DNA of 60,285 nucleotides, taken from IMG/VR virus record IMGVR_UViG_3300033049_000023, positions 1 to 60,285 of that record; one strand, written 5' to 3'. Below, in pieces: positions 1,511-24,760 of this stretch. The DNA is from a virus (taxonomy: Duplodnaviria > Caudoviricetes). The notes below the pieces were generated by a model. That model was not told the origin of the DNA. It searched no databases and worked only from the letters and a program-made list of their open reading frames with translations. Positions within the stretch are counted from its first letter, which is position 1. Each line of letters begins with the position of its first letter. Both the position numbers and the translations under genes were made by a program.

Positions 1511-1749
1511 TGTACCAAATCCTCCAGTGGCACCCAATCTCCGTCGCCGCCTTTTTGGTGGCGTGTCTTTCAACTGTGATGTTCCTCTCGGTCGTGTTTT
1601 ATTTCATGGTAATCGAGAGGACCATCAACGAACTTATCAAGTTGGAAAAGGCGAAGCGTATCAGTGGCTTCCCCTTCCCTCTCAACTCGATTGATTTGAC
1701 TGGACTCACCTGTAAAGGAAACTGCGACTCATGCCAGAACAAAGCGTAA
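1510..1749 (+). CDS. small membrane protein
   Basis: TAATG coupling; hydrophobic ISVAAFLVACLSTVMFLSVVFYFMVI segment. Confidence 0.55.
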   Translation: MYQILQWHPISVAAFLVACLSTVMFLSVVFYFMVIERTINELIKLEKAKRISGFPFPLNSIDLTGLTCKGNCDSCQNKA

Positions 1750-2471
1750 ATCCGTGGGAACTGACGGTTCGCATTGTCCCTATCTCCGACCTCAAAGAGA
1801 TGGAAAACAATGCCCGCACGCATAGCCCGAGATCGATTGAAGCGATCAAGGACTCACTGGAGCGGAACGAACTTCGCAAGCCCGTGGTGGTGGCTTCGGA
1901 TGGGGTGACTGTGATTGCGGGCAATGGCACACTTGTTGCCGCCCGCCAACTCGGGTGGACTCATCTTTCCGTTGCGGACTCGCCGTTTGAGGCCGGGTCG
2001 AAAGAGGCCCGCGCCTACGCGTTGCAGGATAACCGGACTCAGGAACTTTCGATGTTCGACCGGGACATCCTTGAGGATACTTTGCGGGATTTGGATGATG
2101 GGGCTCTCGGGCTCGGGTGGGACACGGACGAACTATCCGCGTTGCTCCCCCCGCCATCACCGAACGCGGGCGCGGCGGCTCACTTCGGGCAACTCTCAGA
2201 AACTACACACACCATCATTCCCGATGGGGGCTCGGAGGGCTCACCGAGTTCCCCCGGGGGTGTTGGTCTCACGACAAACCCGGTGGTGAATCCATCGGAG
2301 GGGTACGCGACTTTGATCTTGACCGGTACCCAAGAGGAGGTCGCCAAGATGCGTGCGAAACTCAACATCCTCAAATCTCAATGGGGACTCGCGCAACTGG
2401 GGGAGACCGCGTTGCGGTTGCTGAACGAATATGATGCAGGGCCCGGGGCTACCGGGTCGGCTAGTGCTTGA
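1731..2471 (+). CDS. ParB/Srx-like N-terminal domain protein
   Basis: NNARTH..IEAIKDSL..PVVV..VIAGNGTLVAARQLG..AYALQDNR pattern typical of ParB-N domains next to phage DNA-modification genes. Confidence 0.8.
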   Translation: MPEQSVNPWELTVRIVPISDLKEMENNARTHSPRSIEAIKDSLERNELRKPVVVASDGVTVIAGNGTLVAARQLGWTHLSVADSPFEAGSKEARAYALQDNRTQELSMFDRDILEDTLRDLDDGALGLGWDTDELSALLPPPSPNAGAAAHFGQLSETTHTIIPDGGSEGSPSSPGGVGLTTNPVVNPSEGYATLILTGTQEEVAKMRAKLNILKSQWGLAQLGETALRLLNEYDAGPGATGSASA

Positions 2472-3298
2472 TGATGGAGAATGCAATGGAAAACTCAACC
2501 GATCTTCTTACTTGGCCCGACGCGTACCACGGCAAACTTTACAGTGACCCGGACCCCCGCTTCCCCTCGGACCTATACGGGTTTGAGAATGTGACCGAGG
2601 AGAGCAACAACAACGGGGAACCTTGCTCCATCCCAACCTTCGAGGCGGACGGCGTAGGCGGTGGCGTGTTCGGCTATGTGCATAGCGGGCGTGCCGTGGT
2701 GAATGGGCGGGTCGTTGTTGAGGGTCAATGGTTCACCACCGATGACGGGGCCTTCATTGCTCTCAAAGACCCGAACACTCGGATGTTCGCGGTACAACGC
2801 CGAGGATGGAAAGGGTGGAACACGGTTGGCGGTCCTATCGAAAACAAAGGTCGGCTCCGCTATATCGATGGATGCACCGACTCACTTCTTGCTTCACCGA
2901 TCCGGAAGGGCGATGCGTGCCTCAACCATCTCCACTTCCCGGGCGAGATTGACCAGACCCAGCACACCCACCCATCATTGCGATGCGGCATTGTCACCCG
3001 GGGCTCGGGTGAGTGCCGGATTCCAAGCGCGGACGGCAACGGGTACACACCCAAAGCCCTTTCGCCGGGGATGATCTTTGTGATTCCAACGGACGGCGTT
3101 CACGCGTTCTCCACCCTCGGCACCGAGGGTATGGATGTGATTCCGTATCACCCCGATTCAGACTTTGGGCCTGAGGATGAGCATCATCCGATGGTGAACC
3201 GCACGCTTGTGGAAGGTGCCAAACTCGACAACACACAAGGCCGTCACGCGGTCGCTGATCTGGAGAACTCAAGCCTTGGAACTCAAACCGGAAACTAA
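2468..3298 (+). CDS. cupin-domain protein
   Basis: QTQHTHPSLRCGIVTRGSG and GMIFVIPTDGVHAF cupin metal-binding motifs. Confidence 0.8.
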   Translation: MMMENAMENSTDLLTWPDAYHGKLYSDPDPRFPSDLYGFENVTEESNNNGEPCSIPTFEADGVGGGVFGYVHSGRAVVNGRVVVEGQWFTTDDGAFIALKDPNTRMFAVQRRGWKGWNTVGGPIENKGRLRYIDGCTDSLLASPIRKGDACLNHLHFPGEIDQTQHTHPSLRCGIVTRGSGECRIPSADGNGYTPKALSPGMIFVIPTDGVHAFSTLGTEGMDVIPYHPDSDFGPEDEHHPMVNRTLVEGAKLDNTQGRHAVADLENSSLGTQTGN

Positions 3299-3698
3299 AT
3301 ACCTCGTTGAGATTACTTCCTCACTCGGCGCAAGCATCAATGTTTGTATGCCGGGGCGGGAAGTTACAGCCCTATTGGAAACAAGGTTGAACTCCCCCAA
3401 CTCGGGTGTCTACCAACTCAGCGGCGAAGCACTTGTAGCCGACCAAGAGGGCAACGCGGCGTTTGAGCCGAGGTACTTCTGTGTCACGGTAGACAAAATC
3501 TTTTCGGTTGCGGTCGCCGAACTTCCCGTTCAGGTGGCGACTACCCCGGCGATGGCTCAACCGGCGGCAACTGCGGACGCGACCGGGGCTCACTCGTTTG
3601 TGTGGAACGGGAAAGAGGATGTGTGCCGCAAGTGCGGCCTTACGCTCACGAAAGAGCAACGCACGGCGTGCGCTTTCAATACCGAATGCGAGGGATAA
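3276..3698 (+). CDS. hypothetical protein with C-terminal His/Cys Zn-finger-like motif
   Basis: TTG start with GGAGA RBS (my start choice); H..CRKC..C..C tail. Confidence 0.6.
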   Translation: MELKPETKYLVEITSSLGASINVCMPGREVTALLETRLNSPNSGVYQLSGEALVADQEGNAAFEPRYFCVTVDKIFSVAVAELPVQVATTPAMAQPAATADATGAHSFVWNGKEDVCRKCGLTLTKEQRTACAFNTECEG

Positions 3699-3699
3699 A

Positions 3700-5562
3700 A
3701 TGCGGACTGAAATCTTTGCGGACTCAAAGCGGATGGTGGAAACCATCACCAAATCATTCTTGCAGCGCACCCAACTCTCATTGGTGGGTCCCTCGGCTAT
3801 CTCGATCTATGAGGACGCGATGCGGCTTGCCCCGCCTACGAACTGGGGAGTGGCGGCGTTCTCCTCGGGATCAACCGGTAGACCAAAGCCGATCTTCCAT
3901 ACTTGGGACTGTATCGAAATCAACTCGGCGTGGGTCGGTGTGCAAATCGGGTTTACCAATCACAAGCACATTCACGCGACGATGCTTTCACCGATCCATT
4001 GCAACGCGGCGTTCCTCTCGGTCGTCGGTACCACGATGTTTGGTATCAAACTTCGGTTGCGGGGTAGGACACAATCGATTCAAGATTTTATGTGCATGAT
4101 CGGGGATGCAACATCGTTGTCCCTCTCGCCGATGAATCTCCGAGAAATGATCCGGCACCGGGTGGAACTTCCCGAGTCATTGAAAACCATCGTGTGCGCC
4201 TCGGCCCCGCTCACGCAAGAACTTTGCAAACGGGCGGCACTTCTCTGGGGTCACCGAGCATCGATCATCCGGCAGGGGTACGGGCTTACCGAGTTGGTCA
4301 ACTTCTCATTCCTCATGCCGGACCTCTCTGAAAAGCACTCTGAATGGTTCCGGCTCTACTGTGAGAATGAAACCCCGCCGGTGGGTAAAGCCCTCGGGGA
4401 TACTGAAATCAAGTTTGACACCGATGGAAGTATCTCACTCAAATCCCTCGCGTGTGGTGTCCCTGAGTGGCACAAGACGGGCGATGTGGGATGGGTGGAC
4501 GATGACGGCTATTTGGTATTGACGGGCCGCAAACAGGACACCATCAACCGTGGTGGGGTGAGTGTGTTCCCGGGGGCTCTGGAGAAGCACTTCCCAGACG
4601 CGACCGCGTTCGCCGTGCATTCTGATGTACTGGGCGAGGATTTCGGTGTGTACACCTCAGGCAATACCCCTACTTGTGATTCGCAGTTCTGCGCGGCCAT
4701 CACCGAGCCCCTTCCCACTACGGTAACCGGTAAGCCGATGCGGTCGCGGATGCGGGATTTGCTCCCCGCCGTTCCTGAGATTGATTACGACCGGATGCTT
4801 GCTTCGCTCCAGCATGAATCCAGCCGTGCGGCGGGGTTCGATCAAAACTTGATCCGAAACAAAACCCCGCGTGTGGCGTATGCCCTTACTCAGTTGACCC
4901 GCGTTCCGGTGTTGGCACCCAAATATGGATTCTCAGGTTATCACGCGGTACGCCGTGCGGCGGAATGGATCATGGACAACATCCACGACCTCCCCGCCCA
5001 GTACCCGAAAGATATTTGGGAAGCGTTGATGTGCGAAGAACCGATGGGAATCTATGGCGAGTTCATGGCCCGGTTCATCGCCACCCGACCATCGAACCGA
5101 ATCTTGGAGTTCGGTGCGGGGATGGGCAACACCACCCGCAAGGTTCTGGAGAACTTCGGCGGTGAGCATTACAGCGCAACCGACCTCCTCTCACGAAGTA
5201 ATCCGTGGGATATTTCAGTGGGCCCGTTCGGCTCGGGCGACTTCGATGTTTGCTTCGGCACCAATGTACTCCATGCGGTGCCCGAAACGAAACGGCTTGA
5301 CGCGGTAAAGAATCTCATTGCATCGGTGCGCCCCGGCGGCGTGGTTGCGATCTCTGAGGGTTCGCCGACCATCGACGGGGAGCCGTGGCCGATGAACGGG
5401 CTGTTCCCTATCGATGGATGGTGGGATGTTGGCGGGTTTGAGTCCCGGGATTACTGGGTCGCGTTGTTTGAGACGGCGGGGCTGAAACAGATTTGCACCA
5501 TGCGGCTCGGCTCACAACGACACGACCACGGCGGTCTTGTGTGGGGGTCGCGTGATGGGTGA
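3700..5562 (+). CDS. AMP-binding (ANL adenylate-forming) ligase fused to C-terminal SAM-dependent methyltransferase
   Basis: SSGSTGRPK, GYGLTE, TGDVG, GRKQDTINRGG and LPTTVTGK adenylation motifs; ILEFGAGMGNTT, FDVCFGTNVLH and RPGG methyltransferase motifs. Confidence 0.9.
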   Translation: MRTEIFADSKRMVETITKSFLQRTQLSLVGPSAISIYEDAMRLAPPTNWGVAAFSSGSTGRPKPIFHTWDCIEINSAWVGVQIGFTNHKHIHATMLSPIHCNAAFLSVVGTTMFGIKLRLRGRTQSIQDFMCMIGDATSLSLSPMNLREMIRHRVELPESLKTIVCASAPLTQELCKRAALLWGHRASIIRQGYGLTELVNFSFLMPDLSEKHSEWFRLYCENETPPVGKALGDTEIKFDTDGSISLKSLACGVPEWHKTGDVGWVDDDGYLVLTGRKQDTINRGGVSVFPGALEKHFPDATAFAVHSDVLGEDFGVYTSGNTPTCDSQFCAAITEPLPTTVTGKPMRSRMRDLLPAVPEIDYDRMLASLQHESSRAAGFDQNLIRNKTPRVAYALTQLTRVPVLAPKYGFSGYHAVRRAAEWIMDNIHDLPAQYPKDIWEALMCEEPMGIYGEFMARFIATRPSNRILEFGAGMGNTTRKVLENFGGEHYSATDLLSRSNPWDISVGPFGSGDFDVCFGTNVLHAVPETKRLDAVKNLIASVRPGGVVAISEGSPTIDGEPWPMNGLFPIDGWWDVGGFESRDYWVALFETAGLKQICTMRLGSQRHDHGGLVWGSRDG

Positions 5563-5908
5563 TCTATATCAAGCGAAGAAATCTTCCGAAATCCAAATCG
5601 ACGCGGATCAGGTTTATGATTTTCACTATGAGTATGACCCAAACCCGGAGCATACAACGGCGGCGAAGTTTCTCCCTTCTGATTCGGTCTCGGGCATTTA
5701 CCTTCTATCGCTCATCAACCGATGGCTTGTGGAGTCCGAGGAGTTCAAGTTCCGTTGCGGCACGAATCTAAATGTGAAGTTCCTCAGACCGATCTTGATC
5801 CACGAAAAGTTGTCCCTCACTGGATACCAACTCGGGGGTAAGATTGATGTAGTGGTGTACGGGCCCGATGGCGTGCAGCGGATGAAGTATCAACTGGAGA
5901 CGGTGTAA
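5555..5908 (+). CDS. MaoC-like hot-dog fold dehydratase
   Basis: F...DPNPEH (DxNPxH), SGIYLLSL, VKFLRPI motifs. Confidence 0.7.
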   Translation: MGDLYQAKKSSEIQIDADQVYDFHYEYDPNPEHTTAAKFLPSDSVSGIYLLSLINRWLVESEEFKFRCGTNLNVKFLRPILIHEKLSLTGYQLGGKIDVVVYGPDGVQRMKYQLETV

Positions 5909-7137
5909 TGGCGAAACGATCAATCTAGGGCGAGCGACAAAACCTTGAAACCTCGGTTTACGAGGAGGCGAAGCGGCGGATTGGGTATTGCATGGATTCG
6001 TCCGATACCATCGTCGTCGGATTTTCCGGCGGCAAGGATTCGACGGCTCTTCTCAATGTGACTCTTGATGTTGCCGAGGAGCGGAACTACGGCCCGGTGA
6101 AGGCAATCTTTTTCGATGAAGAATGTATGCACCCGGAAACGATTGAATATGTTCAGCGGGTTCGGGAGGACCCGCGCGTGGACCTCACTTGGTCATGTAT
6201 CCCGATCAAGAGCCGCAACGCATCGTCCCGGCTCCATCCGTACTATCTGACCTTTGATCCAGACCCCGCCATCGTGCCGCTCTGGGCCCGTCAACCGCCC
6301 GAGGGGGCGTTCACCTCCGAAACCCACCCGACTGTCCCCCAACTCACCCCAATGGACCAGATGGGGCACCTGTTCCCCGTGAGCGAATGCGGCTCGGTGT
6401 GTCATATGCTCGGGCGCAGGTGTCAGGAATCGGTCACCCGGTGGCGGATGATCTCCAACCGGGGCGGCAAGGACGCGTTCATCAGTAAATCACATATGTC
6501 CCGGTGGAAGCACATTCGCGTTGCCGATCCGATTTACGATTGGCGGACTCAGGATGTTTGGGTTGCCCCGCACCTCTACGGGTGGGACTACAACCGGACC
6601 TATGACATTTACGCCCGGATGGGTGTGCCGCTTCATGCTCAACGGGTGGCCCCGGCGTATGCCGAGGAGTCGAAGTTGCTTTGGGCTTACGCGATTGGCT
6701 GGCCCGATCTCTGGGACAAAATCCAAATGCGGGTTCCCGGCGCGGCGTGCTTTGCCCGGTACAACAAAACCAAACTCTACCGGGGCGGGCTGGCGGGAAG
6801 TTGCGAGCCGTCCGAGGGTGAGTCGTGGCAAGATTATGTCCAACGGCTCCTCATGCTCTGGGGACCGGACACCCGGAAACAGGTGGCGGCAAACATCGTG
6901 CAACTCATCAACCGGCACGACCGGCGGTGTATGCAAGAGCAAGGGTTCGTCGATGGGATTCCAGAAATGGAACGGCACATTCTCTCGGGGGTGTCGTGGA
7001 AGATTCTTGCAAAGGTCGCGTTCCAAGGGATGCTCAAAGGGCGGACACTGAGCCAACTTATGCAGTACCGAGGGAAGATTGAAAAAGTAGAAATCACCAC
7101 CAACGAAAGTGAGGGCTCCGATGCCAACGGCGAGTAA
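5908..7137 (+). CDS. ibrA: IbrA/YbdN-like PAPS-reductase family PP-loop protein (in-frame TAG at 5926-5928; uninterrupted ORF from 5992)
   Basis: FSGGKDS PP-loop, FFDEE, GRRCQESVTR, PIYDWRTQDVW, YNRTYD, QRVAP, WPDLWDKI..RVPG. Confidence 0.85.
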
Positions 7138-7678
7138 GTTTATGGGTACCGAGGCCCAACCAATCTCGATTGTAAAGTGGGTTGATCGCGGTGACCTCAT
7201 CGCAAACGATTACAACCCAAACCATATGGCACCGATGGAATCGAAACTCCTCAAAGTTTCGCTCCTCGAAAACGGTTGGACCCAACCGATTGTCGTGATG
7301 AATGATTGGCGGACGATCATCGACGGATTCCATCGGTGGAACTTGTCGGAGGATACTGAAATCTTTGCGATGACCGGCGGGCTTGTGCCCGTGGTGATGG
7401 CGGACATTTCCGAGGCGCAGCGAATCGCGGCAACGGTCCGGCACAACCGAGCGCGTGGGCAACACGCAATCGATCCGATGGGTGACATCACCCACAAACT
7501 TCGGGCGGTCGGCATGACCGACGACGAAATCAAAACGAATCTTGGGATGCAAGCGGAAGAAGTGATCCGCCTTGCCGAAGTTCGGGGCTCACCTCAGCGG
7601 GTCACCGACGACGAACAGCAGGAACTTGGGGCCGCTTGGAACCCCGGCGAGTACAATCCGCACGCGCCCGGCGAATAA
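7121..7678 (+). CDS. ibrB: IbrB/YbdM-like ParB/Srx domain protein
   Basis: ANDYNPN, LLKVSLLENGWTQPIV, IIDGFHR, ATVRHNRARG, LGMQAEEV.RL. Confidence 0.9.
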   Translation: MPTASKFMGTEAQPISIVKWVDRGDLIANDYNPNHMAPMESKLLKVSLLENGWTQPIVVMNDWRTIIDGFHRWNLSEDTEIFAMTGGLVPVVMADISEAQRIAATVRHNRARGQHAIDPMGDITHKLRAVGMTDDEIKTNLGMQAEEVIRLAEVRGSPQRVTDDEQQELGAAWNPGEYNPHAPGE

Positions 7679-7704
7679 ATCTCAATCTAAATACAGCCCT
7701 CACG

Positions 7705-7736
7705 ACCCGCAAGCATCGATCTTGCGGGTTTTTTTT
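7705..7736 (+). terminator. Rho-independent terminator closing the ibr/ligase operon
   Basis: ACCCGCAAG-loop-CTTGCGGGT followed by T-run. Confidence 0.85.
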
Positions 7737-7754
7737 GTAAATAGGTCCTGTTTA

Positions 7755-7815
7755 TTGATTGACACATCAATAAACACCCGATACACTTACAGTGCCGAGG
7801 GATTGTCCTCGGCAC
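7755..7815 (+). promoter_or_regulatory. sigma70-type promoter with operator and 5' hairpin (repeat copy A)
   Basis: TTGACA(7759)-17-TACACT(7782); ATTGACACATCAAT; hairpin GTGCCGAGG-GATTGT-CCTCGGCAC. Confidence 0.8.
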
Positions 7816-7831
7816 GCATGAGGATGCAGCC

Positions 7832-8746
7832 ATGACTATTACAGCAAACGATCTGACCTTCGGCATTGAAATCGAGACCCATGTTTCCCGTGAGAGCAAT
7901 CACCGGCCATCCGGTTACCGCCGCACGAACGACTACGCCACCCGCTTACCTAAGTTCGGGAACGGTTCATGGATGATGACCACCGATGTTACCATTGCGT
8001 GCCCATCGGGCCGGACCGATTGTGAGTTCGTATCACCGATCCTAAAGGGTGCCGATGGCTTGCGGAATGTGATGACCGCCGTGCAAAAGATGCGTGAGGA
8101 AACCCCGGACGGTTGCGGTGCCAAAGTAAACTACTCATGCGGCATCCATGTTCATGTTCAGTTCCCCACCAATGACCTCAAAGCCCTCCGCCGTCTGGTT
8201 CACCTAGTCGCCGCGTTTGAGGGTGGGTTGTACGCCGCGAGCGGAACCAAATCACGCGAGCAAAGTCGCTGGTGCCGGTCGATCAAAGAGACCCACAAAG
8301 GAATCAACGGGAATAAATCGAATCTCCGCGAGGTCATAAACGACAGCGGCGTAAGTCTCAATCATCGCTATGTTTCCTTGAACCTCGTCCCCTTCATCGC
8401 GGGCACTCGCCCCACGGTTGAGTTCCGGTGCTTCTCCGGTTCACTAAACGAAACCAAGATCGCCGGGTATGTCCAAATGTGCATCGGCATGGTTGAGATG
8501 GCGTTGTCGATGAAGTCGGTTGCCCATTGGGATTCCGGCCTTGCCGGTCCTACCTACGGGAAAGACGCTGGACCGGGTGAGCGTGAGTTCAACCGATTGA
8601 TGAAGCGTCTCGGGTGGTCCGGCCTGATGAATAAAAGATCAACAGCCGACCGGGGAATCTTGACCGACGAAACCGGGGACCTCCCCACCAAACGCCGGAT
8701 GCTAAACAAAATGCGTGCGATGGCTCGGAAGTACGATGCCGCATAA
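7832..8746 (+). CDS. putative amidoligase (COOH-NH2 ligase, glutamine-synthetase-like fold)
   Basis: TFGIEIE, D.TI, EFVSPIL, SCGIHVH, RYVSLN, TVEFR motifs. Confidence 0.85.
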   Translation: MTITANDLTFGIEIETHVSRESNHRPSGYRRTNDYATRLPKFGNGSWMMTTDVTIACPSGRTDCEFVSPILKGADGLRNVMTAVQKMREETPDGCGAKVNYSCGIHVHVQFPTNDLKALRRLVHLVAAFEGGLYAASGTKSREQSRWCRSIKETHKGINGNKSNLREVINDSGVSLNHRYVSLNLVPFIAGTRPTVEFRCFSGSLNETKIAGYVQMCIGMVEMALSMKSVAHWDSGLAGPTYGKDAGPGEREFNRLMKRLGWSGLMNKRSTADRGILTDETGDLPTKRRMLNKMRAMARKYDAA

Positions 8747-8826
8747 ATGAAATCCTCATGCCGGGGGCTCGGCGGGAACGCCGGGTTGCCCGATTCTGTT
8801 TCACTCACCTCAGTTGGAGAATAAAA

Positions 8827-9390
8827 ATGTCATACTCACTTGTATTTGTTTATGGAACTTTGATGTCCGGTCACCAAAACGCCCGCCTACTTCACGGCGC
8901 AATGCTTGTCGGTTCGGGCCGGACTGAGAGCAAACTATTCGTTATGCGGGACTCGGGTTTCCCCATCGTTTCCCATGCGACCGCCGAGGACCCCGAGGAT
9001 GCCCGAGGAGCCGTAATAGGCGAGGTGTACCGCGTACCGGATCAAGCTATGCTGGCACGCTTAGACAGTCTGGAGGGGCACCCCACTTGGTACCGCCGTG
9101 AGAATATCACGGTGGCCCTCGATACCGCCGAGGGTGAACCGTCGATTCTCGTTGCTGAAATGTACATCATGCCGAGGGAAATGGCGGACGGTCGGGAGTT
9201 CATCAAAGATTTGGATTATGCGACGCACGAATCAAAGCGTCGGAAGTACCACGCCGCCTATCAACCCATGACCGATGATGAGATTGAGGACGCGGATGAA
9301 GGGTACGCATATTTTTCTGATGCGGCTACTCAGGATGCGGAGGACGATTTGCGGTGGCGGAATGAGGTCGGATTGCCCGATGATGATTGA
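8827..9390 (+). CDS. gamma-glutamylcyclotransferase (AIG2-like)
   Basis: VFVYGTL, GEVYRV, LDSLEGHP.WYRR; GGAG RBS. Confidence 0.9.
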   Translation: MSYSLVFVYGTLMSGHQNARLLHGAMLVGSGRTESKLFVMRDSGFPIVSHATAEDPEDARGAVIGEVYRVPDQAMLARLDSLEGHPTWYRRENITVALDTAEGEPSILVAEMYIMPREMADGREFIKDLDYATHESKRRKYHAAYQPMTDDEIEDADEGYAYFSDAATQDAEDDLRWRNEVGLPDDD

Positions 9391-9396
9391 GCCGAC

Positions 9397-9425
9397 TTGA
9401 CATACCGATCAATATCTTGTATAAT
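9397..9425 (+). promoter_or_regulatory. consensus sigma70 promoter
   Basis: TTGACA-17-TATAAT. Confidence 0.85.
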
Positions 9426-9467
9426 GTGATAGATGTGTAAATAAACTACTCACTTAGGAGACTAAAA

Positions 9468-10394
9468 ATGTGCGGACTATTCGGAGCAATATGTAAAGGT
9501 CGTCGGTCGCTCACCGCTTCGACCATACGGAACTTAGCGGTGGCCCAAGAAAAAAGGGGCCCTCACGCGTTCGGGTTTGCGTGGATCGATTCATCAAACC
9601 GGATTCACTACTACAAACAACAGGGCCGCATTTCGCAGGCACTACACACCCTCGATATGATCGGGGACGCGTGGGCGGTGATCGGCCACACCCGTTGGCT
9701 TACCCACGGGAGCGCAGAGCGTATGGAAAACAATCACCCGCATTCGTGTGATGGCGGTTGGATTGCACACAACGGGCAAATACCGAACTACCTCGAACTT
9801 GCCGACGAACACGATTTGATTCTAAACTCAGAATGTGACTCGGAAGTTCTGGCGGCACTCATCGCCCAGACCGGCGGGGGCAAATCATTGATCCGCCGGA
9901 TTTCTACCTCGGTAAATCGATGCGACCGCAACCGACCCCTTGCGATGGCGGGCCTATGGAACCGACCCGGGCGGCTCGCCCTTGTGCGTAGGGGAAACCC
10001 GATCATGCTCGGGGAGGGCGCGGCGGGCAATGTGTACTTTGGTACCTCACGAATCAAATCGACCCGGATGGTTTGGACCGCGATGGATGACAATGAGGTT
10101 CGTGTATTCGATCTCACCTCGGGAGATGAATCGACCCGCTCGGTTTACCGGTCTCACCCGCCGAAGGTTGGCGAGAAGGTGTTGGGCTCGAACTTCTTTG
10201 GCGAAAGAAACTGCTTTGCGGACAATCCCGATCTTGATGGTGCCGACGATCGATCCTACAACTGGGACGCGTTGCCTCAGGCCAAGCGGGGCTCGAACGG
10301 TCACACCTCAGGCGGGCGCAGGAGCGTATTGGGATACAAGGGCCCGGGGATGGTCCAGCGGGCAACGCGTTTGATTACGGAGGGCTCACGATGA
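9468..10394 (+). CDS. class II (Ntn) glutamine amidotransferase
   Basis: N-terminal MCGLFG, RGPHAFG, IGHTRW.THG, NNHP, HNGQI.N, DSE. Confidence 0.9.
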   Translation: MCGLFGAICKGRRSLTASTIRNLAVAQEKRGPHAFGFAWIDSSNRIHYYKQQGRISQALHTLDMIGDAWAVIGHTRWLTHGSAERMENNHPHSCDGGWIAHNGQIPNYLELADEHDLILNSECDSEVLAALIAQTGGGKSLIRRISTSVNRCDRNRPLAMAGLWNRPGRLALVRRGNPIMLGEGAAGNVYFGTSRIKSTRMVWTAMDDNEVRVFDLTSGDESTRSVYRSHPPKVGEKVLGSNFFGERNCFADNPDLDGADDRSYNWDALPQAKRGSNGHTSGGRRSVLGYKGPGMVQRATRLITEGSR

Positions 10395-10636: not shown

Positions 10637-10887
10637 GAACTGGAGAAGCGCAATCATTGATTGGAGAATATGTGATAGCCCATCAAACCCGGGGGCGTGG
10701 TCACCGGGCGAGTCAGCCGTGCAAGTTGGTTTCGGTAAACGCACGCAAGGGGACCGTGGTGGTTCGACCTAAAAACAATCACGGTCAGGATGAGACCTTC
10801 CCGTTATCCCTCATCAAGCGATGGATCAAAGGGGACCACCAAGCCCGTGAACTCCGCCTTACGCGGAAGCGTGCGCAGAGTGGCTAG
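10633..10887 (+). CDS. hypothetical protein
   Basis: ATGA overlap; AGGAG RBS. Confidence 0.6.
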   Translation: MRTGEAQSLIGEYVIAHQTRGRGHRASQPCKLVSVNARKGTVVVRPKNNHGQDETFPLSLIKRWIKGDHQARELRLTRKRAQSG

Positions 10888-11242
10888 GGCTCGCCGGATC
10901 AATCTGGGCAAGGCGTGCCCCCGGCTACGCGACGACCTTGGACTCATCAAACGGTTGATGGCGAGGGTCGTTGTTGGCCCGGGCGGGTGTTGGATTTGGA
11001 CTGGGTACACCGACTCTCAGGGTTATGGGCAAATCAGCGTCCGGGGAAAACCAATGTGGGTCCATCGGGTGACCTATGCGATATTCAAACAGTCGCTTAG
11101 GGAGGGCGATGAGATCGACCACAAATGTTCCAACTCCTCATGTTGTAATCCGATGCACCTACGGCGCGTGCATCCTAAAGTAAACCGAGGCCAACGCTGG
11201 CCCACCAAAAAGAAATCAAGCGGCGAACTTCCGCCGTTCTAG
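10880..11242 (+). CDS. HNH endonuclease
   Basis: CWIWTG..GYG..HRVTY..IDHKCSNSSCCNPMHL. Confidence 0.85.
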   Translation: MARARRINLGKACPRLRDDLGLIKRLMARVVVGPGGCWIWTGYTDSQGYGQISVRGKPMWVHRVTYAIFKQSLREGDEIDHKCSNSSCCNPMHLRRVHPKVNRGQRWPTKKKSSGELPPF

Positions 11243-11250
11243 GAGTCACC

Positions 11251-11505
11251 ATGAAAGACAAACAAACCGCCGATCTCGATACGCTCACCCTGCAAACCAT
11301 CGCCGAGGATATTGCGGAGTTGGCGAAGCGGCTCGGCGTTCCGGTGTGGGCGGTGTACGCATCGGAGCCGTTGCCGACCTTCAAGGATCAGGCGGCGGAC
11401 GCGGAACGGAAGTTCACCTTGTCGATGACTAGGAGCCGGGGCAAAACGCCGGGCTCATTGAAACTTGTGCGGACCATCGAAGTAGATGATCCAGAGACGG
11501 ACTAA
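11251..11505 (+). CDS. hypothetical protein
   Basis: AGGAG RBS, 84 aa. Confidence 0.6.
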   Translation: MKDKQTADLDTLTLQTIAEDIAELAKRLGVPVWAVYASEPLPTFKDQAADAERKFTLSMTRSRGKTPGSLKLVRTIEVDDPETD

Positions 11506-11521
11506 AAACGAAAGGGCTCAA

Positions 11522-12181
11522 ATGTCGAACAGACTTACAAATGAAGTAAAGCAGAATATCACCCACGCACTCATCGAGCATAAGTTCGCACCGATCAGGA
11601 AAGAGATCGGCGAGGAGAGTTCCGTTATTGCGGACCTTGCGTACTCACTGATTGTTTCGGATGCGACCGCGAAACTCCTCACCAAACTTGCGCCGGGTTG
11701 GGTCCCGAAGTACGCCGGTCTCTATCTTTCATACGAAGGGAAAACGAACTTCTACAAGTTCTCAGTGGACCCGACGACCGCCCGAGAAGAACGGCGTAGG
11801 TTTATCCCGCATGACATTGAGGCGAATCAAAGTAGCCGTTGCTGTTCACACTTCCAAGACCATTTGAGATTCTCCGCAAGTAGCATCACCACCCGAGCAA
11901 CCGATCCTGTGTATGTCAAACGAAAGACGATTGCCAAAAAGATGAAATCGATGCTGGCGAAGTCTACGAAAATGGCGGACGATACCACCAACGCAAAGTC
12001 ATATATCAAAGCGGTCCTCGACTCGGTGACCACCCGAGCAAAGTTGATTGAGGTGTGGCCAGAGATTGAGAGCGTGGTGGATTCGGTGTGGCCGGTGGTG
12101 ACCGATGAGCCGGGAAACGCGCTGGCGGTCAGGATCGACGACCTCAACGCATCCCTTGACCTCCCACCGAAGAAAAAATAA
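11522..12181 (+). CDS. Nmad5-like (nucleotide-modification-associated domain 5) protein
   Basis: N-terminal RLT..K..I and C-terminal LDSVTTRAKLIEVWPE resemble Nmad5, from memory. Confidence 0.6.
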   Translation: MSNRLTNEVKQNITHALIEHKFAPIRKEIGEESSVIADLAYSLIVSDATAKLLTKLAPGWVPKYAGLYLSYEGKTNFYKFSVDPTTAREERRRFIPHDIEANQSSRCCSHFQDHLRFSASSITTRATDPVYVKRKTIAKKMKSMLAKSTKMADDTTNAKSYIKAVLDSVTTRAKLIEVWPEIESVVDSVWPVVTDEPGNALAVRIDDLNASLDLPPKKK

Positions 12182-20930: not shown

Positions 20931-22256
20931 ATGGTCCAGATCGTTTCCACCACCGATAGCCCGCTACCCCGTTTCTGGAAACCGTTGCGGTACCATGAGG
21001 AGCAACAGAAGTTCCTCCACTCCAATTCTCGGTTCAATGTGGTACCGGCGGGGCGGCGTTCGGGAAAGACCGACATCGCTATTCGGCGGGTGGCAAAGAA
21101 GGCACTCATTGAAACCATCCCCTCGGCGTGGTACATTCTCGCGGCACCAACCGAAGGACAGGCCCGGCGTATCTTCTGGGAACCACTCATCAATCTATTC
21201 CCAAAGGAACTGGTGCAAAAGGTATCGCTTGGCAGCATGACCGTTCGGCTCGTCAACTCGGTTGAGATCAGTGTGGTGGGGCTCGATAAACCAGAGCGAG
21301 TTGAGGGCCGTCCGATCCGCCATATCACGCTCGATGAATACGGCAACATCAAGGCGAGCGCGTGGACCTCAAACATCCGCCCCGCGTTGTCGGACCAACT
21401 CGGCACGGCTGACTTCATCGGCGTGCCCGAAGGCCGCAATCACTATTACGAGTTGTGGATGAAAGCCCTCGCCGATACCTCGGGCGCATGGTCCGGGTTT
21501 ACTTGGACATCGGGTGAAATCCTCCCCGCTTCTGAGATTGAGCAGGCCCGAACCGATATGGATCAAATGACATTCGACCAAGAGTACAACGCGAAGTTCG
21601 TCAACTTCGCTGGCCGCGTCTACTACTCGTTTGCCCCCGCGTTCAACGGCAAGTCGAATCTCATTGAGCATTACAACCCAGACGCGGACCTCATCCTATG
21701 TTTCGACTTCAACCACACACCCGGGGTGGCCGTGATTTGCCAAGAGGTGAACGGATGCACGCTGGTACTCGGTGAGGTTTACATTGAGCAGGGATCGAAC
21801 ACCGAGGTAGTGGCGACCGAGGTATGGGAGAAGTGGAAGGGGCACCGGGGGCGGGTTCTGGTGTATGGCGACTCGGCGGGCGGGCAACGCACCTCCTCAA
21901 ACATCCGAGGCACCGACTGGGATTTGGTTCGCGGCGTACTCAAACCTCACTTCGGTTCACGGCTCATCTTCCGTGTGCCAAAGGCCAACCCCCGGGTGCG
22001 GTTGCGGGTCAACTCCCTCAACTCCAGACTGAGGGCGATTGATGGAACGGTCCGGCTTTACATTGATCCGATTGCGTGCCCGATGCTGACCCGAGACCTC
22101 GAAGGCGTGCGGTATAAGGGCAATCAGATTTACAAACCCACCAACCCAAACGACCCAGAATCCAAACTCACGCACATTTCAGACGCGTTCGGGTATTACA
22201 TTACCAGAGCGTTCCCAATGACCGGAGGGGCGAAACTGGTCAATATGGCGGCGTGA
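20931..22256 (+). CDS. terL: terminase large subunit
   Basis: AGRRSGKT Walker A, AAPT..QAR, TLDE Walker B, CFDFN and HISDAFGY nuclease motifs. Confidence 0.93.
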   Translation: MVQIVSTTDSPLPRFWKPLRYHEEQQKFLHSNSRFNVVPAGRRSGKTDIAIRRVAKKALIETIPSAWYILAAPTEGQARRIFWEPLINLFPKELVQKVSLGSMTVRLVNSVEISVVGLDKPERVEGRPIRHITLDEYGNIKASAWTSNIRPALSDQLGTADFIGVPEGRNHYYELWMKALADTSGAWSGFTWTSGEILPASEIEQARTDMDQMTFDQEYNAKFVNFAGRVYYSFAPAFNGKSNLIEHYNPDADLILCFDFNHTPGVAVICQEVNGCTLVLGEVYIEQGSNTEVVATEVWEKWKGHRGRVLVYGDSAGGQRTSSNIRGTDWDLVRGVLKPHFGSRLIFRVPKANPRVRLRVNSLNSRLRAIDGTVRLYIDPIACPMLTRDLEGVRYKGNQIYKPTNPNDPESKLTHISDAFGYYITRAFPMTGGAKLVNMAA

Positions 22257-24476
22257 TTGGCAAAGGTGCCCGGTCTCGGGTATCATTTTCGTATGCCACT
22301 CCAGCCATACGATGGGAAACAAAGCACCGGGACCGCCGATGATATTGCGGCGGGTATCGCCGAGCGTCAAGCGCAGTTGTTTCCAGACCACCTTGGGGTG
22401 AGTGCGATCAAGGGGATTGCCCCGGGCGCACTCAGCGTTCAATCAATGGATTTGAGCGGTCGGGTTTACCTGTCCGCGCCGGACGCATTGACAAACGGCG
22501 GGTACACCATCATCATGCCGCCGGATGCGGGCACGGCAAATCAGCGTATGAGCATCGTTTCGATTGCCAACCGTGAGTTGACGATGGAGTGGAGTCTTGT
22601 AGACCACACCGACCTCGATACAGATTTGCATGACACGATGGAGTTTTTCGTGGGTGCTACGCTTGACGACCCCGATGTAAATGTTTCGAGTGATGGGGCA
22701 ACGATCACGCTTTCATATCAGAAGGACGGCGGCGGTGATATGCGGGTGGTGTTCACCGACCATATCCATGTTCACGATTGCACGCCGCCCGCCACCCTCA
22801 CCCTTACGGCTGGCACAGACACGGCACCGGTACGAAACTATATTTACATTTTGCAGAGCGACAAACTTCTGACCGTCTCGACTTCGGGATGGCCTTCTAC
22901 GGAATACGCACCGGTTGCTGAGGTTCTTTGCCAGAGTGCAACGGCGGTGCAATCGCATGGGCCGCTCAAGTTCCAAATCTGGACAGACCACACCATCAAC
23001 GGGGCGCAAGGTCACCTCGCACATATCAATTCATGGATTCGGTCGCAGGCAACAACTTGGATGACAGGTCTCGAAGTAAATGTCTCAGTGGGCGTTGGTA
23101 CTTTTGATATTTCATTCGGTGCGGGCTCGGCGTTGCAGCTTCACCCGCACGATGTGGAGGCGTTCGATACCGCAGCGGGTGACGATGTGTTTATCGTCAA
23201 CGACAGCGTGACCGCGTTCAAGAAGGTTGGCGACCTCACGGGTGAACTCACCGATGCGGATGGCAACACTCTCAGCAACAAGTTTTACAACCTCGTCGTA
23301 TGGGAATCGGTGTGCGAGATTGCGGCGAACAGCAAGACCTATATCAATCTCCCAAGTGGTTCGTACAACACCGAGGCCGCAGCCGTTCTCGATGCAGACA
23401 AAACCGCCGTGTACACGATCCCCGAAGCGTTCCGAGGCGTTGGGTTTACCCTCGCCCGGTTGACGGTCAAGCACGGCACCGGCGGCGGCGGCACCTTCAC
23501 CCTCGCACAGAATGAGGACTTGCGTGTGACCATCGGCGGCGGGGGCGGTGCGGGCGGCGCAGGCGTTACCATGCTGCCCCAGTTGAGCGATGTGGATACG
23601 GCGGCACTGACTGGAAGTTTCATTATGATGACCCCGGTGGGTGGCGGCAACTATGCCGGTCGTTTGCTGGTGGAAGCGGACTTGCCGGACACCTATTACA
23701 AACAGGACGATGTAATCCTCGCCAACTCGGGCTCGGTGTCGTTCCCCGGATTGTCGTTTAGCGGCGATACGAATACAGGCATCCACAATCCCGAGGCGGA
23801 CAAACTCGGTTTCGTAGCCAACGGCACCGAGATGATGTATTTGATGCGGCTCAGTGGGTTCTTTGATGTGGCCGCGATCATCGTTGACATCTTTGAGATT
23901 GATGCTTCATCCTCATGGGTGTGCCAAACTCCCGAAACGACATTCGGCAACTCGATTGCAAACCCCACACTCCCCGCCGTAGTGGCATGGCGAGAGGCGG
24001 CGAACAACGGCACGAACAAAGTTCTGTTCACGATCCCCGCAAGCATCGCGTCCAATGTGACTTGGACTTGGCCGGTCGCCATCGTGTCTAGCGGCGTGTG
24101 GTTCTCCGATGGCAGCGGCGTACTGACTTGCGAGAAAATCTTGCGATCAAAGGGCGGGTTCATTAGGAGACCCGGAACCTCACTCGACCAAACGCTTTTC
24201 TTCACCACAAAGGCAATCACGGTCACGCAAATCACCGGTGTACTTCGGGGCGGAACTTCCGGCACGATCACAATCCGGCACAGCCCGGATCGGAGTGCAA
24301 CCGGAATCGAAGTGGTGACCGGCGGTAGTGCAATCACAAGTCTCACCACCGGCACGGTCATTACTTCATTCAACGATGCGACCATCCCCGCGAACTCATG
24401 GGTGTGGATGGAAATGCCAGCCAAAACCGGGATCCTTTTAGAACTCGGTTGGGGCATTGATTATACAGACGACTAA
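22257..24476 (+). CDS. putative fibre/virion structural protein
   Basis: Gly/Thr-rich; YTIIMPPDAGTANQ, LPQLSDVD and SFPGLSFSGDTNTGI segments resemble phage fibre motifs; start uncertain. Confidence 0.6.
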   Translation: MAKVPGLGYHFRMPLQPYDGKQSTGTADDIAAGIAERQAQLFPDHLGVSAIKGIAPGALSVQSMDLSGRVYLSAPDALTNGGYTIIMPPDAGTANQRMSIVSIANRELTMEWSLVDHTDLDTDLHDTMEFFVGATLDDPDVNVSSDGATITLSYQKDGGGDMRVVFTDHIHVHDCTPPATLTLTAGTDTAPVRNYIYILQSDKLLTVSTSGWPSTEYAPVAEVLCQSATAVQSHGPLKFQIWTDHTINGAQGHLAHINSWIRSQATTWMTGLEVNVSVGVGTFDISFGAGSALQLHPHDVEAFDTAAGDDVFIVNDSVTAFKKVGDLTGELTDADGNTLSNKFYNLVVWESVCEIAANSKTYINLPSGSYNTEAAAVLDADKTAVYTIPEAFRGVGFTLARLTVKHGTGGGGTFTLAQNEDLRVTIGGGGGAGGAGVTMLPQLSDVDTAALTGSFIMMTPVGGGNYAGRLLVEADLPDTYYKQDDVILANSGSVSFPGLSFSGDTNTGIHNPEADKLGFVANGTEMMYLMRLSGFFDVAAIIVDIFEIDASSSWVCQTPETTFGNSIANPTLPAVVAWREAANNGTNKVLFTIPASIASNVTWTWPVAIVSSGVWFSDGSGVLTCEKILRSKGGFIRRPGTSLDQTLFFTTKAITVTQITGVLRGGTSGTITIRHSPDRSATGIEVVTGGSAITSLTTGTVITSFNDATIPANSWVWMEMPAKTGILLELGWGIDYTDD

Positions 24477-24489
24477 AAGGAGAATCGAA

Positions 24490-24756: not shown

Positions 24757-24760
24757 CCCC

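What the first reader, a model, noticed from the sequence alone, without database searches (positions are those of the whole stretch)
1731..7678. IbrAB-anchored operon with a mini PKS/NRPS-like toolkit: candidate novel phage DNA hypermodification system
Seen: seven overlapping or abutting genes closed by one terminator - ParB-like, cupin, Zn-finger protein, ANL ligase-methyltransferase fusion, MaoC dehydratase, IbrA, IbrB. Known: IbrA belongs to the PAPS-reductase/PP-loop family, like DndC/SspD of phosphorothioation systems, which use ATP-dependent activation. ParB/Srx domains recur in phage DNA-modification loci, and the biochemistry of IbrAB is unresolved. Inference: the ligase activates a carboxylic acid, the methyltransferase, dehydratase and cupin tailor it, and IbrA/IbrB attach it to phage DNA (base or backbone) as anti-restriction armour. 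An alternative is a small-molecule product. I do not know of a described system with this combination.
Basis: partly seen in the sequence, partly recalled or inferred. Interest (0 to 1): 0.92.

Follow-up and report, generated by a model that had tools for sequence, protein, structure and literature searches.

The report
Polyketide-type enzymes inserted in phage IbrAB cassette
A complete uncultured phage carries a common but never characterised four-gene set (two ParB-like proteins, a bicupin and the ATP-using enzyme IbrA) that has been split by three extra genes for activating, methylating and hydrating a small acid, which gives a new handle on what this mystery set does.

Summary
The seven genes and the terminator are real. 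The locus is a mosaic. Its frame is a ParB-like / bicupin / IbrA / IbrB cassette. IMG/VR holds 423 stretches that encode a relative of the bicupin. Of the best 80 loci, 76 have IbrA and 73 have IbrB beside it, and 58 have a large terminase gene within three ORFs. This scan noted the cassette before in at least 24 other genomes.

New here is a cargo inserted between the bicupin and ibrA: a Cys-rich ORFan, an adenylate-forming ligase fused to a PKS-type C-methyltransferase, and a MaoC-like hydratase. Relatives of the ligase-methyltransferase lie in bacterial biosynthetic-looking loci, with hotdog and cupin genes beside them.

None of 80 cassette loci and none of 50 cassette-bearing virus records has the cargo. 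One otherwise unrelated complete 85-kb phage carries both the cargo and the cassette. That suggests a functional link.

The chemistry and the target (DNA or a small molecule) are untested. ibrA has an in-frame TAG at codon 7 of its ancestral frame.

The parts
1731..2471 (+). ParB-like protein (246 aa), first gene of the cassette
   Evidence: phrog_620 E 3.2e-27. A ParB-cluster ORF lies directly upstream of the bicupin in 57 of 80 related viral loci. G001 has a 247-aa ParB_N protein in the same position.
2468..3298 (+). Bicupin with conserved HxH...H site, core cassette gene
   Evidence: Cupin_2 E 4.3e-6. AlphaFold model pLDDT 81, pTM 0.82. Foldseek matches bicupins 1sef, 3rns, 1rc6, OxdC and YxaG. 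3446 relatives at E <= 0.001. 423 IMG/VR stretches encode a relative.
3348..3698 (+). Small Cys-rich ORFan (116 aa from ATG 3348; longest frame from TTG 3207); first gene of the inserted cargo
   Evidence: CxxC-x11-C-x5-C in the translation. Gene-like codon-position GC 0.61/0.50/0.67. No match in Pfam, PHROGs, NCBIfam, PDB or the ESM Atlas. It does not stand in for the missing ligase N-terminus (hhalign probability 0.13%).
3700..5562 (+). Adenylate-forming (ANL) ligase fused to a PKS-type C-methyltransferase (620 aa)
   Evidence: AMP-binding 1.7e-15 and Methyltransf_12 2.2e-6. 20 full-length homologues at 29-33% identity. It lacks about 90 N-terminal residues and an internal stretch that they have, but keeps all invariant motif residues. 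Nearest solved structures: oxalate-CoA ligase, FadD13 and malonyl-CoA synthetase for the ligase; CurJ, PksCT, DisA and LovB C-MT for the methyltransferase.
5555..5908 (+). MaoC-like (R)-hydratase hotdog protein (117 aa)
   Evidence: Homologues lie next to ligase-methyltransferase genes in L052/G001, L056 and L058. The G001 homologue hits MaoC_dehydratas at 1.7e-5. Asp28 and His33 of D-x-N-P-x-H are invariant. The model matches PhaJ1 5cpg and 1iq6 first.
5908..5991 (+). Ancestral 5' end of ibrA: ATG 5908 overlaps the hotdog stop, with an in-frame TAG at 5926-5928
   Evidence: Sequence. The translation aligns with the conserved N-terminal helix of IbrA relatives. TAG ends 7 of 71 + strand ORFs, so it is not reassigned genome-wide. 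The same letters stand in contigs of two runs.
5992..7137 (+). IbrA: PP-loop / PAPS-reductase-like domain plus DUF3440 (381 aa from Met 5992)
   Evidence: PAPS_reduct 2.3e-9, DUF3440 3.2e-6 (27.5 bits, cut-off 25), phrog_2302 4e-64. SGGKDS motif. Relatives found in 76 of 80 bicupin loci.
7109..7678 (+). IbrB: ParB/Srx-like protein (189 aa)
   Evidence: phrog_2159 2.9e-59. Relatives found in 73 of 80 bicupin loci. 46% identical to the G001 protein.
7704..7740 (+). Intrinsic terminator closing the operon
   Evidence: 10-pair stem with 6 G-C pairs, followed by a T-run. It is the top-ranked site of the scan.
7832..10394 (+). Amidoligase, gamma-glutamyl cyclotransferase and class II glutamine amidotransferase (a possible accessory set, under its own promoter-like sites)
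   Evidence: phrog_2443 2.1e-30, phrog_2520 4.5e-27, phrog_14519 8.1e-17. Amidoligase and GGCT are also shared with G001. By tblastn, GATase relatives occur in 7, amidoligase in 3 and GGCT in 2 of 80 cassette loci.

Best explanation
The locus is a widespread phage cassette, ParB-like / bicupin / IbrA / IbrB, split by a three-gene cargo. The cargo was taken from bacterial secondary metabolism: a Cys-rich ORFan, a ligase fused to a C-methyltransferase, and a MaoC-like hydratase.

Inferred from homology:
- The ligase activates a short carboxylic acid as acyl-AMP, and probably as a CoA thioester.
- The fused PKS-type C-methyltransferase methylates the activated alpha-carbon.
- The hydratase adds or removes water at the beta-carbon.

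Inferred from co-occurrence: the product feeds the cassette or is tailored for it.

Inferred from family chemistry and from the cassette's usual place before the terminase genes:
- IbrA, a PP-loop enzyme, adenylates its substrate.
- The two ParB-like proteins bring the enzymes to a nucleic acid, most likely phage DNA about to be packaged.

Shown here: the anatomy, the spread of the cassette, the rarity and origin of the cargo, and the recurrence of both in a second phage. Not shown: any substrate, product or target.
For: Cassette:
- 423 IMG/VR stretches encode a bicupin relative. Of the best 80 loci, tblastn finds IbrA in 76 and IbrB in 73.
- By my own ORF calls, 57 of 80 have a ParB-like ORF directly upstream of the bicupin. 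64 of 80 have a TerL-cluster ORF, and 58 have it within three ORFs after the cassette.
- Three different TerL families follow it: phrog_2, phrog_9 and phrog_15.
- Many of the 80 loci are close relatives: the IbrA tree has 72 rows, of which 60 are different sequences.

The cassette takes variable enzyme inserts:
- a second PP-loop protein in 18 loci;
- a class II amidotransferase in 8;
- a PD-(D/E)XK nuclease in 13;
- a short-chain dehydrogenase in L163.

Origin of the cargo:
- The ligase-methyltransferase has 20 full-length homologues.
- L056 reads hotdog / cupin / ligase-MT / B12 radical SAM / ANL / GT2 / MFS, with PCP-C and two HisRS-like genes upstream.
- L058 reads hotdog / ligase-MT. L057 reads ligase-MT / 4HBT thioesterase. 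P0013 is a ligase-MT-4HBT fusion.
- A Pseudonocardia plasmid has ANL / cupin / type I PKS / LuxC.

Link between cargo and cassette:
- G001 is a complete 85,027-bp virus with terminal repeats. It shares eight genes with the window: bicupin 38%, ligase-MT 29%, hotdog 30%, IbrA 37%, IbrB 46%, amidoligase 28%, GGCT 42% and DNA polymerase 25% (the bicupin by tblastn, the others also by blastp).
- The layout differs: in G001 the cargo lies about 14 kb from the cassette.
- The two IbrA proteins are not sisters. The window's sister is L097 (SH-aLRT 98), whose record lacks the cargo.
- The two ligase-MTs are not sisters either. G001's groups with L058 (SH-aLRT 96).

Enzyme readings.
Against: - The cargo is absent from 80 of 80 cassette loci and from 50 of 50 cassette-bearing records, 12 of them at least 90% complete. 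The cassette therefore needs no such cargo, and the link rests on two genomes.
- In this phage the cassette is not next to the terminase: TerL is at 20931-22256.
- ibrA has an in-frame TAG at codon 7 of its ancestral frame. From Met 5992 it lacks the conserved N-terminal helix.
- The ligase lacks about 90 N-terminal residues and sits on a very long branch of 2.4 changes per site. Decay is possible, and the tree placement is unsure.
- No carrier protein, CoA-related gene or DNA-transferase was found in the operon.
- The bacterial contexts point to a free small molecule.
Confidence: 0.4

Rival explanations
1. The cargo is an independent moron. The ligase-methyltransferase and hydratase make or alter a free small molecule, for example a methyl-branched short acyl-CoA for host takeover or competition. 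They landed at a permissive junction inside the cassette and have no biochemical link to IbrA/IbrB.
For: All non-phage relatives of the ligase-MT lie in small-molecule-type loci with rSAM, NRPS C-PCP, GT2, MFS, PKS or thioesterase genes. The cassette normally lacks the cargo. In G001 the cargo lies about 14 kb from the cassette and on the other strand from ibrA. The cassette junctions accept many unrelated inserts.
Against: Both complete phages that carry this ligase-MT subfamily also carry the bicupin-IbrA-IbrB cassette, although they share only eight genes and their IbrA proteins are not sisters. In the window the cargo is translationally coupled on both sides: the hotdog stop overlaps the ancestral ibrA ATG, and the ORFan stop abuts the ligase start.
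Confidence: 0.3
2. The cassette is regulatory or packaging-linked rather than a modification system. [quoted passage not shown] The cargo would supply or remove a ligand.
For: Published annotations call IbrA/IbrB co-activators or prophage transcriptional regulators (passages). The original E. coli work is recalled, not read. The cassette sits directly before TerS/TerL in 58 of 80 loci. ParB-family proteins bind DNA (established knowledge).
Against: IbrA keeps the PP-loop SGGKDS motif of ATP pyrophosphatases. The bicupin keeps a His-rich metal site: H165, H167 and H211 are invariant in 20 sequences. Extra enzymes join the cassette in other phages: a second PP-loop protein, an amidotransferase and a dehydrogenase. 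This is the pattern of a catalytic pathway.
Confidence: 0.15
3. The operon is decaying in this phage: ibrA is knocked out by a nonsense codon and the ligase is truncated, so the combination has no present function.
For: In-frame TAG at 5926-5928, with no ATG, GTG or TTG before Met 5992. The ligase lacks about 90 N-terminal residues and an internal segment. Its branch is very long.
Against: All residues invariant across the 21 ligase-MT sequences are kept in the window protein, including the P-loop, the A10 lysine, the SAM motif and the N-x-x-H and E residues. The ibrA frame is open for 381 codons after the TAG, with family motifs intact. Codon-position GC is gene-like throughout. The sequence is identical in contigs of two studies.
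Confidence: 0.1

Closest known systems
IbrA/IbrB gene pair (E. coli ECOR-9 island; K-12 YbdN/YbdM; phage families phrog_2302 and phrog_2159)
   Same: PAPS_reduct plus DUF3440 protein followed by an overlapping ParB/Srx-like gene. 145 cultured-phage records hold an IbrA relative.
   Different: Here the pair belongs to a larger cassette with a bicupin and a second ParB-like gene. No cultured-phage record matched the bicupin at E <= 0.001. A three-gene cargo separates the bicupin from ibrA, and ibrA has an in-frame TAG. The names ECOR-9 and YbdN/YbdM are recalled; only lists papers that hold ybdN/ybdM.
ParB-bicupin-IbrA-IbrB cassette before terminase
   Same: Same four families in the same order. 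The window proteins are 37-57% identical to those of 80 IMG/VR loci.
   Different: The cassette is interrupted by the ORFan, the ligase-MT and the hydratase. It lies about 13 kb upstream of TerL instead of next to it.
DndB/DndC and SspD of DNA phosphorothioation
   Same: A PAPS-reductase-family ATP pyrophosphatase paired with a ParB-like protein. Weak local match to the DndC model: E 3.4e-7 over residues 130-191.
   Different: 29.5 bits against a cut-off of 290.4 for DndC. No cysteine desulfurase, DndD or DndE turned up among the window ORFs scanned. The bicupin and DUF3440 are not Dnd parts.
Bacterial ligase / C-methyltransferase didomain family (e.g. Stigmatella erecta WP_093525416; Pectobacterium WP_052012112)
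   Same: Same two domains in the same order, 29-33% identity over 91-99% of the phage protein. Hotdog and cupin genes are neighbours.
   Different: The phage protein is about 90 residues shorter at the N-terminus and sits inside a phage DNA-associated cassette instead of a biosynthetic-looking cluster. I found no paper on this family, but I ran no search aimed at it.
Phage thymidine hypermodification cassettes (M6, SN1: hydroxymethylase, Nmad5, aGPT-Pplase, kinase, rSAM, PLP enzyme)
   Same: An enzyme toolkit in a phage that builds a side group on DNA. The window also has an Nmad5 gene at 11486-12181: PF18757, E 3.6e-16. The M6/SN1 gene list was seen in passages of PMC9476957.
   Different: No hydroxymethylase, kinase or aGPT-Pplase among the 27 window ORFs scanned against Pfam. 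The chemistry here (PP-loop, bicupin, ANL, C-MT) has no counterpart in those pathways.

Membership tests
IbrA (PAPS_reduct + DUF3440) | PP-loop SGGKDS motif and PAPS_reduct domain | tested here: met
   GFSGGKDS in the translation. PF01507 E 2.3e-9, 37.9 bits, cut-off 22.5.
IbrA (PAPS_reduct + DUF3440) | C-terminal DUF3440 domain | tested here: met
   PF11922 E 3.2e-6, 27.5 bits, cut-off 25. Also found by the genome search.
IbrA (PAPS_reduct + DUF3440) | Intact N-terminal helix before the PP-loop strand | tested here: not met
   The helix is encoded, but it lies behind an in-frame TAG at 5926-5928. The first usable start is Met 5992.
IbrB (ParB/Srx-like partner) | ParB-like gene directly after and overlapping ibrA | tested here: met
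   phrog_2159 E 2.9e-59; 29-nt overlap with ibrA.
ParB-bicupin-IbrA-IbrB phage cassette | Bicupin directly upstream of ibrA, ParB-like gene upstream of the bicupin | tested here: inconclusive
   All four genes are present in the canonical order. However, 2.7 kb of cargo separates the bicupin from ibrA, a state seen in 0 of 80 related loci.
ParB-bicupin-IbrA-IbrB phage cassette | Position directly before TerS/TerL | tested here: not met
   TerL is at 20931-22256, about 13 kb downstream. It lies within three ORFs in 58 of 80 related loci.
Dnd/Ssp phosphorothioation | DndC/SspD equivalog score | tested here: not met
   TIGR03183 29.5 bits against a cut-off of 290.4.
Dnd/Ssp phosphorothioation | Cysteine desulfurase, DndD, DndE or SspB/C partners | tested here: not met
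   None among the operon's seven proteins or the other window ORFs scanned. Not every small ORF was scanned.
ANL adenylate-forming enzymes | AMP-binding domain with P-loop, A5, A7, A8 motifs and the A10 lysine | tested here: met
   PF00501 57.2 bits, cut-off 29.9. S56-K63, Q192-E198, D262, R277, G285-G286 and K345 are invariant with 20 homologues. The motif names are recalled.
ANL adenylate-forming enzymes | Complete N-terminal subdomain | tested here: not met
   About 90 residues present in all 20 homologues are missing. The upstream ORF does not supply them.
PKS-type C-methyltransferase | Closest solved relatives are C-MT domains; SAM motif and His/Glu pair kept | tested here: met
   Profile hits: CurJ 3.2e-20, PksCT 2e-15, DisA 1.8e-14, LovB 8.2e-14. 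Beyond the family itself, megasynthases of 3,000-7,500 aa follow. E470, G472, G474, G476, N522, H525 and E553 are invariant. The catalytic role of His/Glu is recalled.
MaoC / (R)-specific enoyl-CoA hydratase hotdog | Pfam MaoC_dehydratas above threshold | tested here: not met
   No hit for the window protein at E 0.01. The G001 homologue scores 24.8 bits against a cut-off of 27.
MaoC / (R)-specific enoyl-CoA hydratase hotdog | Hotdog fold nearest to hydratases, and the D-x-N-P-x-H motif | tested here: met
   Foldseek top hits are PhaJ1 5cpg, PhaJ 1iq6 and MaoC-like 3exz, TM 0.55-0.60, on a model of pLDDT 77. Asp28 and His33 are invariant in four homologues. The motif definition is recalled.
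Thymidine hypermodification pathway | Hydroxymethylase, 5-hmdU kinase, aGPT-Pplase | tested here: not met
   Only Nmad5 was found. None of the others appeared among the ORFs scanned.

The most novel reading that the evidence does not exclude
The bicupin-IbrA-IbrB cassette is a modular DNA-hypermodification machine. Different phages plug different donor-building cargos into it: ammonia from an amidotransferase, a dehydrogenase product, amino-inositol in the earlier scan notes. In this phage and in G001 the plug-in is a carrier-free, polyketide-like kit. It builds a methyl-branched, beta-processed short acyl group that ends up covalently on phage DNA. That would be a class of DNA modification not described so far.
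Probability: 0.15. Interest if true: 0.9.

Novelty: new variant of a known kind. Interest (0 to 1): 0.62.

Why it matters
IbrA/IbrB-type genes occur in many phages. IbrA relatives are in 145 cultured-phage records. The bicupin form is in 423 IMG/VR stretches. Yet I found no biochemical account in the papers searched.

Cargo variants are natural experiments: each hints at what the cassette handles. A cargo made of an acid-activating ligase, a C-methyltransferase and a hydratase, recurring in two unrelated complete phages, narrows the search to a short acyl or carboxy compound. It also gives a compact 6-kb construct to express and assay.

If the target is DNA, this would add an acyl-type branch to the known phage hypermodifications. 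If not, it is a rare case of a phage carrying a carrier-free, polyketide-like tailoring pair.

Tried and rejected
Closed or wasted routes:
- The one genome-contig scan, run with the full-length alignment A1, picked generic ANL motifs. It returned 48 ordinary ANL loci and no family member.
- A 401-genome sample of the phylum of G005 gave 0 hits, and the genome sizes show it was the wrong phylum. That result says nothing.
- The word-indexed search with the hotdog alignment returned only its four query sequences.

Scans for close relatives:
- Single-protein scans of IMG/VR with the ligase-MT, the cupin and IbrA found no close relatives.
- blastn of the operon against cultured phages found nothing.
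- tblastn of the ligase-MT against cultured phages gave only 6 weak generic ANL hits.

Ideas tested and dropped:
- The small Cys-rich ORF is the detached N-terminus of the ligase: rejected, hhalign probability 0.13%.
- The window hotdog is related to the 4HBT domain fused in P0013: no similarity, E 6.1.
- The window bicupin is related to the Pseudonocardia plasmid cupin: not significant, E 0.14.
- TAG is reassigned genome-wide: rejected, since TAG ends 7 of 71 + strand ORFs.

Left undone or without result:
- No RNA holder was listed among the 8 runs that hold the stretch.
Supplements of PMC12839542 and of the thymidine-hypermodification work may list ParB/PAPS-reductase neighbourhoods that I could not see.

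Full report
What the window is. The window is a whole IMG/VR virus record of 60,285 bp with direct terminal repeats. All sizeable genes are on the + strand. PHROG matches name a large terminase, portal, head morphogenesis protein, major head protein, tape measure, helicases and a DNA polymerase. No tRNA gene was found. It is a tailed phage with no close relative among 50,697 cultured-phage records or in IMG/VR by single-protein scans. Contigs of about 60 kb that carry 1700-7800 letter for letter occur in runs of two studies, a subsurface and a seawater metagenome. Either may be the source of the record.

The observation. The seven ORFs are there.
- ParB-like, 1731-2471: phrog_620, 3.2e-27.
- Cupin, 2468-3298: Cupin_2, 4.3e-6, just under the cut-off.
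- A Cys-rich ORF, 3348-3698: CxxC-x11-C-x5-C and gene-like codon-position GC. It has no match anywhere.
- Ligase-methyltransferase, 3700-5562: AMP-binding 1.7e-15, Methyltransf_12 2.2e-6.
- Small hotdog-type ORF, 5555-5908.
- IbrA, 5992-7137: PAPS_reduct, DUF3440, phrog_2302 4e-64.
- IbrB, 7109-7678: phrog_2159 2.9e-59.
The best terminator-like site of the first 12 kb follows at 7704-7730. Most junctions overlap or abut. The exception is 83 nt before ibrA. There, ATG 5908 overlaps the hotdog stop and opens the ibrA frame, but codon 7 is TAG. The residues encoded after the TAG align with the conserved N-terminal helix of IbrA relatives. TAG is an ordinary stop elsewhere in this genome, ending 7 of 71 + strand ORFs. 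It holds, and it is a caveat for any claim that IbrA is active here.

The frame of the operon is a common cassette.
- A profile of three bicupins found 3446 proteins at E <= 0.001.
- A 20-sequence alignment found 423 IMG/VR stretches that encode a relative. The best 80 loci were fetched.
- In these 80, tblastn with the window and G001 proteins finds IbrA in 76 and IbrB in 73.
- With my own crude ORF calls and BLAST clustering, 57 of 80 loci have a ParB-like ORF directly upstream of the bicupin, and 57 have two or more ParB-like ORFs. 64 have an ORF of one of three TerL clusters, and 58 have it within three ORFs after the cassette. The strict run bicupin-IbrA-ParB is unbroken in 29.
- The neighbours were named by PHROGs as TerL of three families (phrog_2, phrog_9, phrog_15), TerS and portal.
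- The loci are not all independent: 72 IbrA rows gave 60 different sequences.
- The bicupin reading rests on a model (pLDDT 81, pTM 0.82) whose best Foldseek matches are two-barrel cupins: 1sef, 3rns, 1rc6, oxalate decarboxylase and YxaG. H165, H167 and H211 are invariant.
- No cultured-phage record matched the bicupin, although 145 hold an IbrA relative.
- Earlier notes of this scan describe the same cassette in at least 24 other genomes. I treated these as leads and re-derived the cassette from my own searches.

The cassette accepts inserts. Other loci carry extra genes inside or beside it:
- a second, shorter PAPS-reductase-like protein in 18 loci;
- a class II glutamine amidotransferase in 8;
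- a PD-(D/E)XK nuclease between ibrA and ibrB in 13;
- in L163, a short-chain dehydrogenase between the ParB-like gene and the bicupin.
Earlier scan notes report an amino-inositol cargo (e1-6224250, e1-6201681; not checked here).

The cargo of this phage. Between the bicupin and ibrA lie the ORFan, the ligase-methyltransferase and the hotdog gene.
- The ligase-methyltransferase has 20 full-length homologues at 29-33% identity. Named sources are Stigmatella erecta, an Anaerolineae MAG, and a cluster over 90% identical across Photorhabdus, Pectobacterium, Klebsiella aerogenes, Pantoea and Musicola, with a near relative in Pasteurella.
- The methyltransferase profile finds 130 representatives at E <= 1e-30 among 1.84 billion. 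These are fusions of about 650-750 aa and stand-alone forms of about 290 aa, followed by megasynthases.
- Its nearest solved relatives are PKS C-methyltransferase domains: CurJ 3.2e-20, PksCT, DisA and LovB.
- Those of the ligase are oxalate-CoA ligases, FadD13, feruloyl-CoA and malonyl-CoA synthetases.
- The phage copy lacks about 90 N-terminal residues and an internal stretch, but keeps every residue invariant in the family. It sits on a long branch.
- The hotdog protein has homologues next to ligase-methyltransferase genes in G001, L056 and L058. It keeps Asp28 and His33 of a D-x-N-P-x-H motif. Its model is closest to PhaJ (R)-hydratases. Pfam itself does not call it.

Where the cargo comes from.
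- L056, a metagenome contig, reads hotdog / cupin / ligase-MT / B12 radical SAM / second ANL / GT2 / MFS, with a PCP-condensation protein and two HisRS-like genes upstream.
- L057 has a 4HBT thioesterase after the ligase-MT, and P0013 is a fusion with one.
- A Pseudonocardia plasmid has a related ANL followed by a cupin, a type I PKS and a LuxC-type reductase.
These are small-molecule contexts.

Is the cargo linked to the cassette? Against a link: 0 of 80 cassette loci and 0 of 50 whole cassette-bearing records, 12 of them at least 90% complete, hold a ligase-MT. The other 30 of the 80 records were not searched.

For a link: the only other complete virus with this ligase-MT is G001 (85,027 bp, terminal repeats). 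It also has a ParB-like gene, the bicupin, a second PP-loop gene and ibrA in a row, with ibrB convergent to them. Proteome-wide the two phages share only the ligase-MT, hotdog, IbrA, IbrB, amidoligase, GGCT and a DNA polymerase by blastp, plus the bicupin by tblastn. In G001 the cargo lies about 14 kb from the cassette. The window's IbrA is sister to L097 (SH-aLRT 98), not to G001. G001's ligase-MT groups with L058, not with the window's. Long branches make both placements unsure. Two lineages keeping both gene sets in different layouts is what functional coupling predicts, but it is still only two genomes.

Mechanism. The following is inferred, not shown.
- The ligase makes an acyl-adenylate, and probably a CoA thioester, of a short acid.
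- The C-methyltransferase needs such an activated alpha-carbon.
- The hydratase works on the beta-carbon.
- IbrA, as a PP-loop enzyme, adenylates a carbonyl, carboxyl or phosphate for displacement by a nucleophile (family knowledge).
- Two ParB-like proteins and the usual position before the terminase genes point to DNA.
- The window also has an Nmad5 gene at 11486-12181 (PF18757, 3.6e-16). That family sits in the thymidine hypermodification cassettes of M6-like phages (passages of PMC9476957) and is linked to Tmn sensing in Dhillonvirus (passages of PMC11846954). No hydroxymethylase, kinase or aGPT-Pplase was found.

I put about 0.9 on the mosaic anatomy, about 0.55 on functional coupling, about 0.35 on DNA as the target, and 0.4 on the explanation as a whole.

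Comparison and novelty. The pair is IbrA/IbrB by family. It is not Dnd: 29.5 bits against a cut-off of 290.4. [quoted passage not shown] Searches for DUF3440, for PAPS reductase with ParB, and for ybdN/ybdM gave no biochemical study. The cassette is therefore known but uncharacterised, and this scan has met it before. The polyketide-type cargo inside it is new, so I class the finding as a new variant of a known kind.

Noticed in passing
window 5908-5991: The ancestral ibrA start (ATG 5908, overlapping the hotdog stop) is followed by an in-frame TAG at 5926-5928. The conserved N-terminal helix is encoded after it. The same letters stand in contigs of two studies.
   Followed up: partly
window 10790-12181: An HNH-type endonuclease gene (HNH_3, E 4.8e-5) and an Nmad5 gene (PF18757, E 3.6e-16) lie 3-4 kb downstream of ibrB. 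No other thymidine-hypermodification gene was found.
   Followed up: partly
window 22257-25780: Two large genes (739 and 368 aa) between the large terminase and the portal have no PHROG match.
   Followed up: no
L090 3375-7802 (G001 69374-73801): In G001 an SMC/SbcC-like ATPase (540 aa) directly precedes ibrB. ibrB is convergent with ibrA, and a second PAPS-reductase-like gene lies between the bicupin and ibrA.
   Followed up: partly
proteins P0004, P0060-P0066, P0006: One ligase-methyltransferase cluster is over 90% identical across Photorhabdus, Pectobacterium, Klebsiella aerogenes, Pantoea and Musicola, with a near relative in Pasteurella multocida. This suggests a mobile element. Its context could not be read.
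   Followed up: no
L056 2469-17319: A metagenome cluster with two HisRS-like paralogues, a PCP-condensation protein, hotdog, cupin, ligase-MT, B12 radical SAM, a second ANL, GT2 and MFS. It looks like an undescribed biosynthetic cluster.
   Followed up: no
L163 9270-9977: A short-chain dehydrogenase (adh_short, E 1.5e-23) is inserted between the ParB-like gene and the bicupin of another phage's cassette.
   Followed up: no
phage collection as a whole: 145 cultured-phage records have an IbrA relative, but none matched the bicupin at E <= 0.001. IMG/VR has 423 stretches with the bicupin.
   Followed up: partly
L050 9899-20328 (Pseudonocardia plasmid pLS2-1): A related stand-alone ANL is followed by a cupin, a type I PKS (KS-AT-DH-KR-ACP), an unknown protein and a LuxC-type acyl-CoA reductase.
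   Followed up: partly
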